Shown: positions 1,532 through 17,395 of the stretch, piece by piece
Layout: every line of letters begins with the position of its first letter
How positions within the stretch are numbered: the first letter of the stretch is position 1
Virus record (IMG/VR): IMGVR_UViG_2778261252_000011
Length of the DNA stretch: 42,392 nt
Strand: one strand, 5' to 3'
Source: a virus
Taxonomy: Duplodnaviria; Heunggongvirae; Uroviricota; Caudoviricetes
Translations under genes and position numbers: made by a program
Notes under the pieces: model-generated
Told to the model about the DNA's origin: nothing
Seen by the model: the letters and a program-made list of their open reading frames with translations, nothing else
Database searches by the model: none

Positions 1532-1741
1532 TTAATTTGAATACAATGCAATTCTCGAGGACTGAAGTTTCTCGCAATTAAAATTTATCAGTTTTACTTT
1601 CTGCTCTCTGGAAACGCCTGCTTCTTTTTTACCTGAGAGCATTTTTTCGCATTCTGATTTCGTTAGTTTAGATTTTGAATATCTTGTCCAGTTAGTAGGA
1701 GTGCCACCTTCCTTTTCAATAGTGGCGGTAATTTTATACAT
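1532..1741 (-). CDS. ydaC: YdaC-like small prophage protein (69 aa)
   Basis: ORF MYKITATIEKEGG... with a GGAGG Shine-Dalgarno 6 nt upstream; same position as ydaC in Rac. Confidence 0.6.
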   Translation of the reverse strand: MYKITATIEKEGGTPTNWTRYSKSKLTKSECEKMLSGKKEAGVSREQKVKLINFNCEKLQSSRIALYSN

Positions 1742-1928
1742 GAACACCTCCATTATTATTTCCAGTGGTTCGTTTATTCCATCTTTCGAGTGCTTCTTTT
1801 TCACTTCCACCATAACCGGTTCGGGATTCGCATCCGTTACACTTCGCTCGGTAATATCCTGAAATGGCTTTCACCGTTACTGATGGACAACCACAAAATG
1901 GACATGGTTTAACATTGTCATATCTCAT
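1734..1928 (-). CDS. ralR: RalR (Lar) restriction-alleviation protein / type I toxin (64 aa)
   Basis: Translation MRYDNVKPCPFCGCPSVTVKAISGYYRAKCNGCESR... matches my recollection of RalR; 8-bp overlap with ydaC. The partner RalA antisense sRNA is known from the literature, but I cannot place it from sequence. Confidence 0.8.
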   Translation of the reverse strand: MRYDNVKPCPFCGCPSVTVKAISGYYRAKCNGCESRTGYGGSEKEALERWNKRTTGNNNGGVHV

Positions 1929-1984
1929 AATTTTTCTCATAAAAAATATTTCAAGTTGGCGGTGCATTACACCGCCAGGCTGAA

Positions 1985-12734: not shown

Positions 12735-13508
12735 TTAGAACTGTTCATTGCCATCGAGGTTAGGTAGCATAATTTTTTCAATCAAGGCGAGAGCCTTTTT
12801 GTCCCGGTCAGCGAAGTATTTCGGGGCATATTGCGGCAACCAAATATTGTTAAAATGTTCTTTGAAATCTGCTAAATATTCATTTGGGTACAGCCTTGCA
12901 GGGTATACGCGACCATCGGGATATTCATGGTCATAGGTAGGGAATGTTTTGGGTTCTACGTTTCTATTATCTCTTAACCATTGTGAAAATACTCTTCCTT
13001 GTGAAATGTCAGGAACCATTTTTTCTGGGAGTGTGTACCCTGCTTGTTCAAGAGGTGCAACCAAGTTGAATGTCAGTTCATTAAGAATAGAAAAGTGCGT
13101 GTGAGGAATTCTACTACGATTAACCATGTACCGTTTTAAATGTACAGGCATTTCTGCTGTAGTTCTTTCCCCTGACATCCATTCACGAACCCATCTTGAA
13201 ACCTGGACTGCAAATTTGGGCGATAGCCACTGCGCTAGATTAATAGCGATGTCAGGATGCACCCATGTCCCTTGGTTTTCAGGTCTTCCACCTTTAAATG
13301 ATTGAATTAACTCCGATATGGGAATTCCCATATCGCGTGATAATTCGTCAAAAAACTCTTGAGTAGTTTTGAGTCTAGTGTAATCAGAGAGCAGTTTGCC
13401 CGCAGTTCTACACATTGATGTGGCGTTTATGTAACCATCTTTGGCACGTAAATGTATTATTTCGCCGTCAATTTCACGAGAAATCAAAGATAATTGAAAG
13501 GATGTCAT
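12735..13508 (-). CDS. KilA-N domain protein (257 aa), opposite-strand moron
   Basis: N-terminal segment IHLRAKDGYINATSMCRTAGK... reads as a KilA-N/APSES-type domain; GAGGAA Shine-Dalgarno; transcribed against the flanking operons. Confidence 0.75.
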   Translation of the reverse strand: MTSFQLSLISREIDGEIIHLRAKDGYINATSMCRTAGKLLSDYTRLKTTQEFFDELSRDMGIPISELIQSFKGGRPENQGTWVHPDIAINLAQWLSPKFAVQVSRWVREWMSGERTTAEMPVHLKRYMVNRSRIPHTHFSILNELTFNLVAPLEQAGYTLPEKMVPDISQGRVFSQWLRDNRNVEPKTFPTYDHEYPDGRVYPARLYPNEYLADFKEHFNNIWLPQYAPKYFADRDKKALALIEKIMLPNLDGNEQF

Positions 13509-13827
13509 TGAAAATTCCTCAAGTTGGAGAGTTCTGGAACATTAAGGCGAGGTGGCAGTAATGCACCATCTGTAATCTTTTGATACTGACGTAATCGGGC
13601 CTGATGTGCAACGCCTTGCAAGTATGTAACTCATTGAAAACGATCATTTTTATCTATTGACATCAAATGGCAAACTGTCATTGTGCGGCTATGGCAAGTG
13701 GCAAATGCTTATAAATCATATGGATATAAATGGTACAGAAAGAGTTGTTTTCTCTAGGATATGAGTATACGCCCAATGCTGATTGGTTGAATTTTGTTCT
13801 TGTTTTAAAGGGTAAGAGTTTAAAGTG

Positions 13828-13856
13828 TTGGCAGTGATGTATTGGATAGTTAGAAT
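13828..13856 (+). promoter_or_regulatory. Sigma70-like promoter for the hok-like mRNA (-35 TTGGCA, 17-bp spacer, -10 TAGAAT)
   Basis: Hexamers read directly; predicted start falls at GGTGCTTGAGGCTATCTGCCTC, which resembles the hok mRNA 5' end as I recall it. Confidence 0.45.
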
Positions 13857-14030
13857 TGCTGTGGGTGCTTGAGGCTATCTGCCTCGGGCATGAACACCAA
13901 AGGTAGATAGAGAAAAGCCCCAGTTAACATTACGCGTCCTGCAAGACGTTTAACATTAATCTGAGGCCATATCTATGCGACACATAGAGATTAGCCTCTT
14001 ACGGACCGAAAGGTCAAGGAGAAGCAGGCT

Positions 14031-14156
14031 ATGAAGCAGCAAAAGGCGATGTTAATCGCCCTGATCGTCATCTGTTTAACCGTCATAGTGACGGCACTGG
14101 TAACGAGGAAATACCTCTGCGAGGTACGAATCCGAACTGGCAGACGGAGGCTCTGA
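14031..14156 (+). CDS. Hok/Gef-family type I toxin, C-terminally truncated or divergent (41 aa); possible frameshifted allele
   Basis: Translation MKQQKAMLIALIVICLTVIVTALVTRKYLCEVRIRTGRRRL; the family-typical C-terminal segment is absent; a 19-codon mok-like upstream ORF (13975-14034) overlaps the start. Confidence 0.6.
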   Translation: MKQQKAMLIALIVICLTVIVTALVTRKYLCEVRIRTGRRRL

Positions 14157-14238
14157 TTCGTAGACTACTAATCTGAGTAAAAGACCCAGCGGGGAAAGAA
14201 CCACGCCGGGACTAGTTAATAAGATATTTATAGCGTGG

Positions 14239-14580
14239 CTATTCTTTTTTTGCGGTATAGACTTTTTCGCCTGAGAAGTCTGGAGCTACCCAAAAGTTAA
14301 TATTAAACTGAGCATCATCGCTTAGTTCAACACGGTGCCAGTATTGTGGTGGGCTTGTTGCAAAAGCGCCAGCATTAATGACTACTTTTATCTCCGGTTC
14401 AGTAGCATTCTCATCAGCAAAACCATAATATGTTACAGTACCTTCCATCACGCATAACTGTCCAAAAACACCTGCTGCTGTATTATGATGTGTTAATAAC
14501 GCTGAAGGTACGTTCTCTTTTGTGAAGAACGGAGTTGAGCGTTTGATTACCCAGTCTTTAGGAATTCTCTTGTGTGTCAT
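14239..14580 (-). CDS. YeaR-like DUF1971 protein (113 aa)
   Basis: Translation MTHKRIPKDWVIKRSTPFFTKENVPSALL... resembles E. coli YeaR as I recall it; GGAGGTGG Shine-Dalgarno upstream of ATG 14580. Confidence 0.65.
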   Translation of the reverse strand: MTHKRIPKDWVIKRSTPFFTKENVPSALLTHHNTAAGVFGQLCVMEGTVTYYGFADENATEPEIKVVINAGAFATSPPQYWHRVELSDDAQFNINFWVAPDFSGEKVYTAKKE

Positions 14581-15447
14581 AACCACCTCCCATAAAACAT
14601 GCATTATAAATGCACCCTTTTGAGGGTTATGTCAAACTGTTATGAAACACATAATTGATATGTTGATTAGAGGAGAAGATAGAATCAATATGGTTGTTTT
14701 TCGTATAACTATTTGTTTTACTTTTAGTTTGTGCATTCTGTGTGTTAGGAATAACTTATTAAAGTTTAACTAAAAAATCTCGATATAGTCCGCATAGATT
14801 ACTGTTACTGAATCTTATTGTGTGCATTAGTTGTGTTCTGAAATTTCAATTTAATTACTTATGATATATTTTTAACGATAAATGTTTTCCGGGTGAAAGA
14901 CAGTGGGGGATGAGATAAGCAATATATCATTAATCTTGATTATTTCCAGGATGCCTTTACTGTGCATATAAATAAATCATATACGCATCAAATAATGTAA
15001 AGGCATCCTTTTAGATATATCTTATCAAATGTTAATGATTTGAGTGGGAAACATGATTCCAGAAACTAATCATGCGGCTACTTTATAAAAATAATGCCCA
15101 TATAAAACAGCCAGCGAAAAGGATTACGGATAAAAAAGGAGCGAGATGTGCATAGTTGTTATTTTCCATGTTTAACCACCTTAAATAATTGATGATGACG
15201 GGATGTGCATCTGTAATGCTTTTGTTGAAATGTTATGATAAAAAAGAACTTTTTCATAACATTAAAATGTAATTTATCTAATCGTTTTTAATAATAAGTG
15301 TTGTATTTCTATCCTTGTATCAGCTATTTGATATGTAGTGTTTGTTCATGTTATGTGGAGCTTTACACCATAGCCAGTTTATTTATACTTTATTCGTCAG
15401 CCTGAACAACTGGCATCTGCTGCACTGCGCCATCGAGAGATTGAGAA

Positions 15448-17241: not shown

Positions 17242-17317
<76 letters not shown>

Positions 17318-17320
17318 TAT

Positions 17321-17395
<75 letters not shown>

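What the first reader, a model, noticed from the sequence alone, without database searches (positions are those of the whole stretch)
13828..14240. hok/sok-like type I toxin locus with a truncated Hok C-terminus and a short mok-like reading frame
The 5' leader GGTGCTTGAGGCTATCTGCCTC, the AGCCTCTTAC...AAGGAGAAG segment and the Hok N-terminus MKQQKAMLIALIVICLTVIVTALVTRK.LCEV all resemble hok-family loci as I recall them. Against that recollection the reading frame looks shifted by one missing base after ACTGGC, ending the protein at 41 aa (…RTGRRRL), and the mok-like frame (13975-14034) stops at the hok ATG instead of running through it. A sok-like promoter is plausible on the minus strand around 13988-14017. 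This could be a decaying locus or a variant that still kills through the retained transmembrane helix.
Basis: partly seen in the sequence, partly recalled or inferred. Interest (0 to 1): 0.5.

Follow-up and report, generated by a model that had tools for sequence, protein, structure and literature searches.

The report
Decayed hok/sok toxin-antitoxin remnant in prophage
This is a real but broken copy of the well-known hok/sok toxin-antitoxin locus in an E. coli prophage: its antitoxin-RNA half looks intact, its toxin gene has lost its tail and its RNA safety-catch, and such decayed copies are ordinary.

Summary
Window 13828-14240 holds a hokD/hokW-type hok/sok locus (Rfam RF01794 101.5 bits; Pfam HOK_GEF 4e-15). 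The promoter, leader, Sok gene and Sok promoter, 19-codon mok frame, hok SD and Hok codons 1-37 are about 98% identical to loci with intact 51-aa HokD.

Besides the 1-nt deletion there is a 2-nt deletion, a 3-nt deletion and a GAA>TAA change. The mRNA's 3' stem-loop is degraded, and the fold-back (fbi) element and terminator are missing. Similarity stops at about 14207, at a junction with a DUF1971 gene module.

The last 61 nt are 30-36% divergent against 2% for the first 284 nt. A 48-aa intermediate allele, the private D28Y change and a copy with a further 93-nt deletion show stepwise decay.

The "short mok" is not a defect. It occurs in about 1490 E. coli records, and those examined are annotated as intact hokD.

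Published mutagenesis of Hok and HokB makes a still-toxic 41-aa peptide unlikely. Best reading: a toxin-dead remnant unable to do post-segregational killing, probably still making Sok RNA. It is already annotated in RefSeq. Low interest.

The parts
13828..13856 (+). hok promoter-like site: TTGGCA (13828-13833), 17-nt spacer, TAGAAT (13851-13856). The predicted start is at about 13863.
   Evidence: 10 of 12 consensus matches. It sits directly upstream of the conserved 5' end GGGTGCTTGAGG shared with 933W hokW and the hokD loci.
13863..14033 (+). hok mRNA leader. It contains the 5' tac element (GGGTGCTTGAGG, 13863-13874), the tac stem-loop, the Sok-target hairpin, the mok SD and start, and the hok SD (AAGGAG, 14017-14022).
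   Evidence: Rfam RF01794, 101.5 bits, full-length. 13905-14051 is 100% identical to the intact hokD locus of strain ChlosBP-23-1.
13913..13981 (-). Sok-like antisense RNA gene. The ends are placed by homology with the annotated sokW of phage 933W. It consists of a 5' single-stranded tail, a long hairpin and a U-run.
   Evidence: 933W annotation mapped through alignment A1. Folding 13985->13905 gives -28.7 kcal/mol, z = -4.2, a hairpin followed by UUUUCUCU. Transcription was not tested.
13988..14017 (-). Sok promoter: -10 TAATCT (13993->13988) and -35 TTGACC (14017->14012), with an 18-nt spacer.
   Evidence: It is homologous to the sokW -10 (TAACCT) that was mutated to make the promoter-less sokW (primers YO-421/422 in PMC8621323). 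It is identical in intact hokD loci. The generic promoter scan did not call it because the -10 matches only 3 of 6 positions.
13975..14034 (+). mok-like leader ORF of 19 codons (MRHIEISLLRTERSRRSRL). Its TGA overlaps the hok ATG (ATGA).
   Evidence: It is identical in the intact loci L005, L006 and L007. This leader type is >=99% identical in 1490 records.
14031..14156 (+). Truncated hok ORF of 41 aa. Codons 1-37 are Hok-like (transmembrane helix residues 6-25 and conserved Cys30). It carries D28Y (T at 14112), a 1-nt deletion after 14140, and a new tail RRRL followed by a stop.
   Evidence: RefSeq annotates it as WP_097246851.1, 'Hok/Gef family protein'.
14147..14182 (+). Degenerate remnant of the Hok C-terminal coding region (hokW type). 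It has a 2-nt deletion plus substitutions at 14151-14156, TAC-TAA (14166-14171) where intact loci have the editable TACG Tyr codon followed by GAA, and a 3-nt deletion before the old stop codon (14177-14179).
   Evidence: There are 15-21 mismatches plus 3-4 indels in 61 nt, against 5-6 mismatches plus 1-2 indels in 284 nt upstream when compared with the hokD-type loci.
14185..14210 (-). Hairpin CCCGGCG...CGCUGGG followed by UCUUUUAC on the minus strand. It is probably the terminator of the DUF1971 gene and occupies the place of the hok mRNA's 3' stem-loop. On the + strand the stem has an A-C mismatch (14188/14207).
   Evidence: A counterpart exists in the hok-less prophage L009. Similarity to the hok 3' stem-loop is marginal (z about 4).
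14207..14243 (.). Mosaic junction. Similarity to hok loci ends at about 14207, and >=95% similarity to the widespread DUF1971 module begins at 14243. The fbi element (CCTCAACGCACCCGC) and terminator (AACCCGCTTCGGCGGGTTTTT) of intact loci are absent.

Best explanation
[quoted passage not shown] It is now a pseudogene-like remnant.

The 5' two-thirds are intact: the hok promoter, the leader with its tac stem-loop and Sok target, the Sok gene with its promoter, the 19-codon mok leader ORF, the hok SD, and Hok codons 1-37. This part is kept similar to functional copies, at least partly by recombination with them.

The 3' third is wrecked. The periplasmic C-terminal part of Hok has been replaced by RRRL. 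The stabilising 3' stem-loop of the processed mRNA is degraded. The fold-back (fbi) element and the terminator were lost at a junction with a DUF1971 gene module.

Expected behaviour (inferred, not shown):
- Sok RNA is probably still made.
- hok mRNA, if made, cannot adopt the inert 5'-3' locked form and has no protected 3' end, so there is no stable mRNA reservoir.
- The 41-aa product is most likely non-toxic.
- The locus therefore neither kills nor stabilises anything.

The order of decay is: 3' block and junction (48-aa product), then the 1-nt deletion (41 aa, the common form), then D28Y in the window's lineage or a 93-nt deletion in another lineage.
For: Homology and intact 5' part:
-.
- 13863-14146 differs from an intact hokD locus by 5 mismatches and 1 gap in 284 nt, and 13905-14051 is identical.

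Damaged 3' part:
- 15-21 mismatches plus 3-4 indels in 61 nt; Fisher p = 3.5e-13 against the closest relative and 1e-5 against 933W.

fbi lost:
- Minimum-free-energy folds of four intact mRNAs pair nucleotides 1-12 with CAACGCACCC just upstream of the terminator.
- The window has no complement of its 5' end within 13800-14700, and its 5' end folds only locally.
- No + strand terminator was found.

Stepwise decay:
- The 48-aa allele P0007 (...RTGQTEALIRRLLI) sits in the same context with the same 3' block.
- D28Y is absent from phage vB_EcoS-666R9. The Y28 peptide is on 36 contigs and the D28 peptide on at least 1000.
- L019 has lost 13954-14046.

Recombination inside the locus:
- L013 and L017 join other 5' lineages to the same 3' block.

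Experimental literature:
- R1 Hok loses toxicity with 18 of 20 possible premature stops, M46I, Y48N, read-through, or a C-terminal tag. Mutations in the last 3' stem-loop also abolish toxicity (PMC9841398).
- Replacing the Gef C-terminus with PhoA gives a non-toxic protein (PMC8509063 citing Poulsen 1991).
- C46 is essential in edited HokB, and the equivalent position in HokD is an editable TACG Tyr (PMC12214031 and PMC5630033). Here it reads TACT and lies beyond the stop.
- A Hok catalogue discards CDSs under 40 aa and keeps only sequences with more than 40 residues aligned in conserved positions. The RTGRRRL peptide is absent from its held supplements.
Against: - No expression or toxicity data exist for this allele.
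- The ORF keeps a good SD, its start codon, the whole transmembrane helix and Cys30. Several unrelated type I toxins are little more than a helix (general knowledge).
- The 41-aa form is far more abundant (at least 1000 contigs) than the 48-aa form (3 contigs). It travels in phages deposited as isolated phages. That could reflect selection for it, or only hitch-hiking.
- The published truncation and mutation data are for R1 Hok, Gef and HokB, not HokD or HokW.
- The position of the stop in the preprint's non-toxic 'R1*Stop' control is not given.
Confidence: 0.75

Rival explanations
1. The locus is a working, non-canonical type I toxin-antitoxin pair. The 41-aa peptide (helix plus a strongly basic tail) is still membrane-toxic, and Sok alone holds it in check without fold-back control.
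For: - The promoter, SD, start codon, transmembrane helix 6-25 and Cys30 are intact.
- The Sok gene and promoter are identical to those of functional-looking loci.
- The allele is abundant and is carried by phages deposited as isolated phages.
- In R1 Hok, single alanine changes of conserved residues do not abolish toxicity (preprint 10.1101/2025.08.07.668861).
Against: - Nearly all premature stops, C-terminal point mutants and C-terminal extensions inactivate R1 Hok.
- The Gef C-terminus is required.
- The second Cys position is missing.
- The 3' stem-loop needed for mRNA stability is degraded, and fbi and the terminator are absent.
- Damage continues to accumulate: D28Y at a residue that is Asp in all six intact relatives compared, and a 93-nt deletion in L019.
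- The C-flank net charge changes from -2 to +6.
Confidence: 0.1
2. The remnant is kept because of its Sok half. It would act as an orphan antitoxin RNA that neutralises hokD-type mRNAs of other prophages or plasmids in the same cell (anti-addiction or cross-immunity), with the toxin half disabled.
For: - The Sok region and promoter are 100% identical to an intact locus, while the toxin's 3' end is 30-36% divergent.
- The same leader and Sok target occur in 1490 E. coli records.
- Most genomes that carry the remnant have 2-5 hokD-like places.
- The preprint raises the idea that chromosomal copies defend against plasmid addiction.
Against: - The conservation of the 5' part is equally explained by recent recombination with intact copies (L013 and L017) and by the young age of the lineage. 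The decayed alleles differ among themselves at only a few sites.
- L019 has deleted the Sok promoter.
- One carrier genome has no other hokD-like copy (H52).
- Chromosomal Sok RNAs did not protect against R1 hok, so cross-talk needs near-identity.
- No expression data are available.
Confidence: 0.12
3. The frameshift is a sequencing or assembly artefact in an otherwise intact hokD gene.
For: The deletion is a single base.
Against: - The same allele is in about 100 complete genomes from many laboratories, three phage genomes, several IMG/VR contigs and at least 1000 contigs overall.
- Restoring the base still gives a non-Hok tail (the 48-aa P0007).
- The other lesions and the missing 3' end do not depend on that base.
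Confidence: 0.01

Closest known systems
hokD (relF) type loci of lambdoid prophages with the short mok leader (e.g. E. coli ChlosBP-23-1, CFSAN061770, Nord58; HokD WP_000813254.1)
   Same: The hok mRNA 5' end, leader, Sok gene and promoter, 19-codon mok, hok SD and Hok residues 1-37 are the same. Identity is 97.6% over 296 nt in BLAST and 100% over 13905-14051. The genomic niche is also the same: between the replication genes and the Q antiterminator gene.
   Different: Those loci encode a full 51-aa HokD, a perfect 3' stem-loop, the fbi element and a terminator. The window has none of these and ends in a DUF1971 module.
hokW-sokW of Stx2 phages 933W and Sp5 (experimentally validated type I TA; PMC8621323)
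   Same: Identity is 91.5% over the locus. The Sok promoter position is the same. The window's degenerate C-terminal coding remnant is of the hokW type (GTAGACTAC...AATCTGAG).
   Different: hokW has a 70-aa Mok in frame with Hok, a full-length 51-aa toxin and a complete 3' end. It lies elsewhere in the phage genome. It aids phage release after induction.
Inactivated chromosomal hok loci of E. coli K-12 (hokA, hokC and hokE by IS elements; hokD by rearrangement; Pedersen and Gerdes 1999 as cited in PMC12214031 and PMC5630033)
   Same: They are the same kind of thing: hok/sok copies that have lost components of the canonical system.
   Different: K-12 hokD keeps an intact toxin ORF and 3' end but has lost the upstream leader and Sok (K12 row). 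The window shows the reverse pattern: leader and Sok kept, toxin 3' end lost.
hok/sok (parB) of plasmid R1
   Same: The architecture is shared: tac at the 5' end, a Sok target over the mok translation start, mok-hok translational coupling, and an antisense Sok with a terminator hairpin (PMC9841398).
   Different: R1 has a 70-codon mok in another frame, a 52-aa Hok and a functional tac/fbi lock with 3' processing. It performs post-segregational killing, which the window's locus lacks the elements for.

Membership tests
[quoted passage not shown] | Peptide with the Hok/Gef domain (Pfam PF01848) | tested here: met
   E = 4.1e-15, 55.5 bits against a cut-off of 22, but only profile positions 1-34 of 42 are covered. 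Residues 1-37 are identical to HokD and HokW except D28Y.
[quoted passage not shown] | Conserved, structured hok mRNA leader (Rfam RF01794) | tested here: met
   101.5 bits against a gathering score of 59, model positions 1-157, + strand 13863-14033.
[quoted passage not shown] | Antisense Sok RNA gene with its own promoter and terminator hairpin, overlapping the mok translation start | tested here: met
   Sequence-level evidence only. It is homologous to the annotated sokW. The -10 lies at the position that was mutated experimentally in sokW. There is a hairpin plus U-run, z = -4.2. Transcription is not testable with these tools.
functional hok/sok system (canonical regulation and killing) | mok leader ORF translated up to the hok translation start region | tested here: met
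   The 19-codon ORF 13975-14034 ends in an ATGA overlap with the hok start. It is identical in intact loci. Translation up to the hok start region is what R1 requires (PMC9841398).
functional hok/sok system (canonical regulation and killing) | Full-length Hok (about 48-55 aa) with the periplasmic C-terminal part, including the second Cys or editable TACG Tyr position | tested here: not met
   The product is 41 aa. The tail after G37 is RRRL. The old Tyr codon lies beyond the stop and now reads TACT-AA (PMC5630033 and PMC12214031).
functional hok/sok system (canonical regulation and killing) | Long-range tac-fbi pairing between the 5' and 3' ends of the full-length mRNA | tested here: not met
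   The pairing is predicted in all four intact relatives tested. In the window no complement of the 5' end exists in 13800-14700, and the 5' end pairs only locally.
functional hok/sok system (canonical regulation and killing) | Stable 3' stem-loop of the processed mRNA and an intrinsic terminator | tested here: not met
   Intact loci have a 9-bp perfect stem and the terminator AACCCGCTTCGGCGGGTTTT. In the window the stem has an A-C mismatch on the + strand and no terminator was found.
functional hok/sok system (canonical regulation and killing) | Toxicity of the peptide and its neutralisation by Sok; post-segregational killing | not testable with these tools
   This needs expression and plasmid- or prophage-loss assays. 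The literature on R1 Hok, Gef and HokB argues against toxicity.

The most novel reading that the evidence does not exclude
The toxin-dead remnant is retained, and its 5' half kept current by recombination, because it supplies Sok RNA in trans. That Sok would give the phage or its host immunity to hokD-type killing by competing prophages or plasmids (an 'anti-addiction' antisense RNA). A less likely alternative is that the basic-tailed 41-aa peptide has gained a new membrane activity.
Probability: 0.12. Interest if true: 0.5.

Novelty: already known. Interest (0 to 1): 0.17.

Why it matters
It matters little beyond annotation.

- **Annotation:** RefSeq lists this 41-aa product as an ordinary "Hok/Gef family protein" and does not flag it as a pseudogene. 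Counts of hok toxins per genome will therefore include a copy that is almost certainly dead.
- **mok:** the case documents that the 19-codon mok leader with an ATGA overlap is the common, functional-looking form in the hokD subfamily. The recent Hok catalogue left mok annotation open.
- **Recombination:** hok loci appear to act as recombination joints between prophage modules.
- **If the orphan-Sok idea were true:** it would be a modest but interesting example of RNA-based anti-addiction.

Tried and rejected
- **fbi elsewhere:** I looked for a relocated fbi, meaning any 8-10 nt complement of the 5' end, or the 12-mer complement with up to 2 mismatches, in 13800-14700. None was found.
- **TadA editing of the new TAC codon (D28Y):** rejected. 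Its context is ATACCT, not the TACG motif (PMC5630033). It aligns with HokB T27, not with the edited Y29/C30 column (my own alignment by eye).
- **Positive-inside argument for inverted topology:** the C-flank net charge rises from -2 to +6. However, R1 Hok itself has +2 on both flanks, so I use this only as a weak hint.
- **Is the DUF1971 flank in hok-less prophages an older hok 3' UTR remnant?** The local alignment is marginal: score 25 against a shuffle mean of 16.3, sd 2.1 and maximum 26. I left it as suggestive only.
- **Generic promoter and terminator scan:** it did not call the Sok promoter or any terminator. The Sok promoter rests on homology to the mutated sokW -10.
- **Hok catalogue supplements:** RTGRRRL is absent from the files held as text, and one of those files is cut.
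- **FASTBAC-Seq supplement (exact positions of premature stops):** not held.
- **Word-indexed protein search:** it did not list the query's own cluster. An exact look-up was needed.
- **Co-resident intact copy:** I could not retrieve the second hokD-like place in the carrier genomes to test whether an intact copy sits in the same cell.

Full report
**1. What is in the sequence**

The window is a Rac-like lambdoid E. coli prophage. It carries an integrase, the RalR ORF with its RalA sRNA, RecT, replication genes, a Q-like antiterminator module and two tRNAs. It is near-identical to phage vB_EcoS-666R9 and to prophages in about 100 of 5426 complete E. coli genomes.

Between a KilA-N/BstA-like gene (12735-13508, minus strand) and a DUF1971 gene (14239-14604, minus strand) lies the reported locus. 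Its features are:

- **Leader.** Rfam RF01794, which despite its name models the hok mRNA leader, matches 13863-14033 on the + strand over its full length at 101.5 bits (gathering score 59).
- **Toxin ORF.** 14031-14156 encodes 41 aa and hits Pfam HOK_GEF at 4e-15, but only over profile positions 1-34 of 42. RefSeq annotates it as a Hok/Gef family protein and does not flag it as a pseudogene.
- **hok promoter.** A good sigma-70-like site (TTGGCA, 17 nt, TAGAAT; 13828-13856) sits just upstream of the conserved 5' end GGGTGCTTGAGG.

**2. Comparison with intact relatives**

I aligned the locus with the annotated hokW/mokW/sokW of phage 933W, four E. coli prophage loci encoding intact 51-aa Hok proteins, and K-12 hokD.

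The 5' part is essentially intact. Window 13863-14146 differs from the ChlosBP-23-1 hokD locus by five substitutions and one gap in 284 nt. 13905-14051 is 100% identical. That stretch includes the Sok target, the Sok gene, the Sok promoter, mok and both Shine-Dalgarno sequences.

The last 61 nt of recognisable hok sequence (14147-14207) carry 15-21 substitutions and 3-4 indels. Fisher p is 3.5e-13 against the closest relative and 1e-5 against 933W. The lesions are:

- a 2-nt deletion with neighbouring substitutions (GAGGCTCTGA--TTCG against GAGGTCGCTGTCTTCG);
- GAA>TAA directly after the old Tyr codon;
- a 3-nt deletion before the old stop codon.

The residual C-terminal coding sequence is of the hokW type (GTAGACTAC...AATCTGAG), whereas the leader is of the hokD short-mok type. 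The copy is therefore a mosaic.

**3. The 3' regulatory end is missing**

Intact relatives continue past the stop codon with three elements: a perfect stem-loop, then CCTCAACGCACCCGC, then the terminator AACCCGCTTCGGCGGGTTTT. Minimum-free-energy folds of all four intact mRNAs that I folded pair nucleotides 1-12 with that CAACGCACCC segment. This is the tac/fbi fold-back lock described for R1 (PMC9841398).

In the window:

- similarity to hok loci ends at about 14207;
- no complement of the 5' end exists anywhere in 13800-14700;
- the 5' end folds only locally;
- no + strand terminator is found.

The hairpin at 14185-14210 has an A-C mismatch on the + strand. On the minus strand the same position is a G-U pair, and the hairpin is followed by UCUUUUAC. 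A counterpart sits behind the same DUF1971 module in prophages that have no hok. It now looks like the terminator of the DUF1971 gene. Whether that flank itself derives from an old hok 3' UTR is only suggestive (z about 4).

**4. The short mok is normal**

The 19-codon frame 13975-14034 (MRHIEISLLRTERSRRSRL), whose TGA overlaps the hok ATG, is identical in the intact loci L005, L006 and L007. The 111-nt segment around it is >=99% identical in 1490 E. coli records. The records sampled from that band, other than one carrying the decayed allele, are annotated as hokD.

933W and strain AJ1 instead have a 70-aa Mok in frame with Hok. By my own recollection of its sequence, R1 uses the third frame.

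In R1, mok must be translated up to the hok start region and not beyond it (PMC9841398). The short frame therefore satisfies the known requirement. The ATGA overlap suggests termination-reinitiation coupling, which is an inference.

**5. Sok**

Mapping the 933W sokW annotation through the alignment places the antisense RNA at about 13981->13913. This strand folds into a long hairpin followed by a U-run (-28.7 kcal/mol, z = -4.2).

The primers used to make a promoter-less sokW replace TAGGTTA, so the sokW -10 is TAACCT (PMC8621323). The window has TAATCT at 13993->13988, with TTGACC at 14017->14012. All of it is identical to intact loci, so Sok is probably still produced. That is inferred; I have no transcript data.

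**6. Stepwise decay and recombination**

- The exact 41-aa sequence with Asp28 is on at least 1000 contigs (the counter is capped), including E. marmotae. The window's Tyr28 form is on 36 contigs.
- Phage vB_EcoS-666R9 has G at 14112, so D28Y is a later, private change.
- A 48-aa protein, P0007 (...RTGQTEALIRRLLI), is what the window would encode without the 1-nt deletion. It occurs on three contigs, in the same KilA-N/hok/DUF1971 context where flanking sequence is available, and with the same 3' block and junction.
- L013 (48 aa) and L017 (41 aa) join different promoter and upstream lineages to the same 3' block. This shows recombination inside the locus.
- IMG/VR contig L019 has additionally lost 13954-14046, which removes the Sok promoter, mok and the hok start.
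- The protein database also holds many other Hok variants whose sequence breaks right after RTGQ.

The most economical history is: junction and 3' block first, then the 1-nt deletion, then D28Y in one lineage or the 93-nt deletion in another.

**7. Is the 41-aa peptide still a toxin?**

This cannot be tested here, but the literature argues against it.

- In R1 Hok, 18 of the 20 possible single-substitution premature stops were recovered as loss-of-function mutations. So were M46I, Y48N and stop-codon read-through. An 8-aa C-terminal tag abolishes toxicity, and mutations weakening the last 3' stem-loop also abolish it (PMC9841398).
- Replacing the Gef C-terminal part with PhoA gives a non-toxic protein (PMC8509063 citing Poulsen 1991).
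- In the family alignment, 'position 46' is a Cys or an editable TACG Tyr codon. [quoted passage not shown] In the window that codon lies beyond the stop and now reads TACT.
- The C-terminal flank changes from net -2 to +6. This is only a weak hint of altered topology.

Even if the peptide were toxic, the locus lacks the fbi lock and the protected 3' end. Without them it cannot build the stable mRNA reservoir on which post-segregational killing depends.

**8. Verdict**

Decayed hok copies have been known since the K-12 loci were described (cited). A recent catalogue filters out such short forms as degenerated. This protein is already in RefSeq.

What remains open is whether the intact Sok half does anything in trans, and this can be tested by experiment. 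I rate the finding as ordinary and of low interest.

Noticed in passing
window 1557-1735 (+) and 1734-1967 (-): There is a second type I toxin-antitoxin element in the same prophage. A RalA sRNA matches Rfam RF02694 at 225 bits, full-length. It lies next to an ORF whose sequence (MRYDNVKPCPFCGC...) I recognise from memory as RalR/Lar.
   Followed up: partly
window 12735-13508 (-): The gene immediately upstream of the hok remnant is a KilA-N protein. Its C-terminal half matches the PADLOC BstA model (E = 3.2e-21), and its homologues carry Pfam BstA_C. It is therefore a likely BstA-type prophage-encoded abortive-infection defence gene. I did not search for its aba self-immunity element.
   Followed up: partly
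window 14239-14604 (-), and L009/L010 2502-2840: The DUF1971 (TehB-like) gene travels with the downstream DUF1367-DUF1364-DUF1133 module in about 450 E. coli genomes. On its other side the cargo varies: the hok remnant here, adenosine deaminase/NTP pyrophosphatase/SIR2 in APEC E12049, and an MFS transporter in strain S21. This position looks like a cargo-swapping hotspot.
   Followed up: partly
window 13975-14034; L005, L006, L007: The 19-codon mok with an ATGA overlap onto hok is the commonest leader type among hokD-type loci (1490 records at >=99% identity). 933W is instead annotated with a 70-aa in-frame Mok-Hok fusion. The recent Hok catalogue left mok annotation unresolved.
   Followed up: yes
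L019 (IMGVR_UViG_3300007747_000074), equivalent to window 13954-14046: This phage contig carries the same decayed allele with an additional 93-nt deletion that removes the Sok promoter, mok and the hok start.
   Followed up: yes
proteins P0001, P0003, P0008, P0016, P0020, P0113: Many other HokD/HokW variants in the protein collection keep residues 1 to about 36-41 and then switch to unrelated tails. I did not check whether these are real independent frameshifts just after RTGQ or sequencing errors.
   Followed up: no
window 17242-17317 and 17321-17395 (+): There are two phage-borne tRNA genes, tRNA-Thr (tgt) and tRNA-Gly (tcc), downstream of the Q-like (DUF1133) gene.
   Followed up: no
window 14166-14171: The old Tyr codon that is A-to-I edited to Cys in hokC, hokD and hokE (TACG motif) is still recognisable, but it now reads TAC-TAA. 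A single G>T change destroyed both the editing motif and the next codon.
   Followed up: yes
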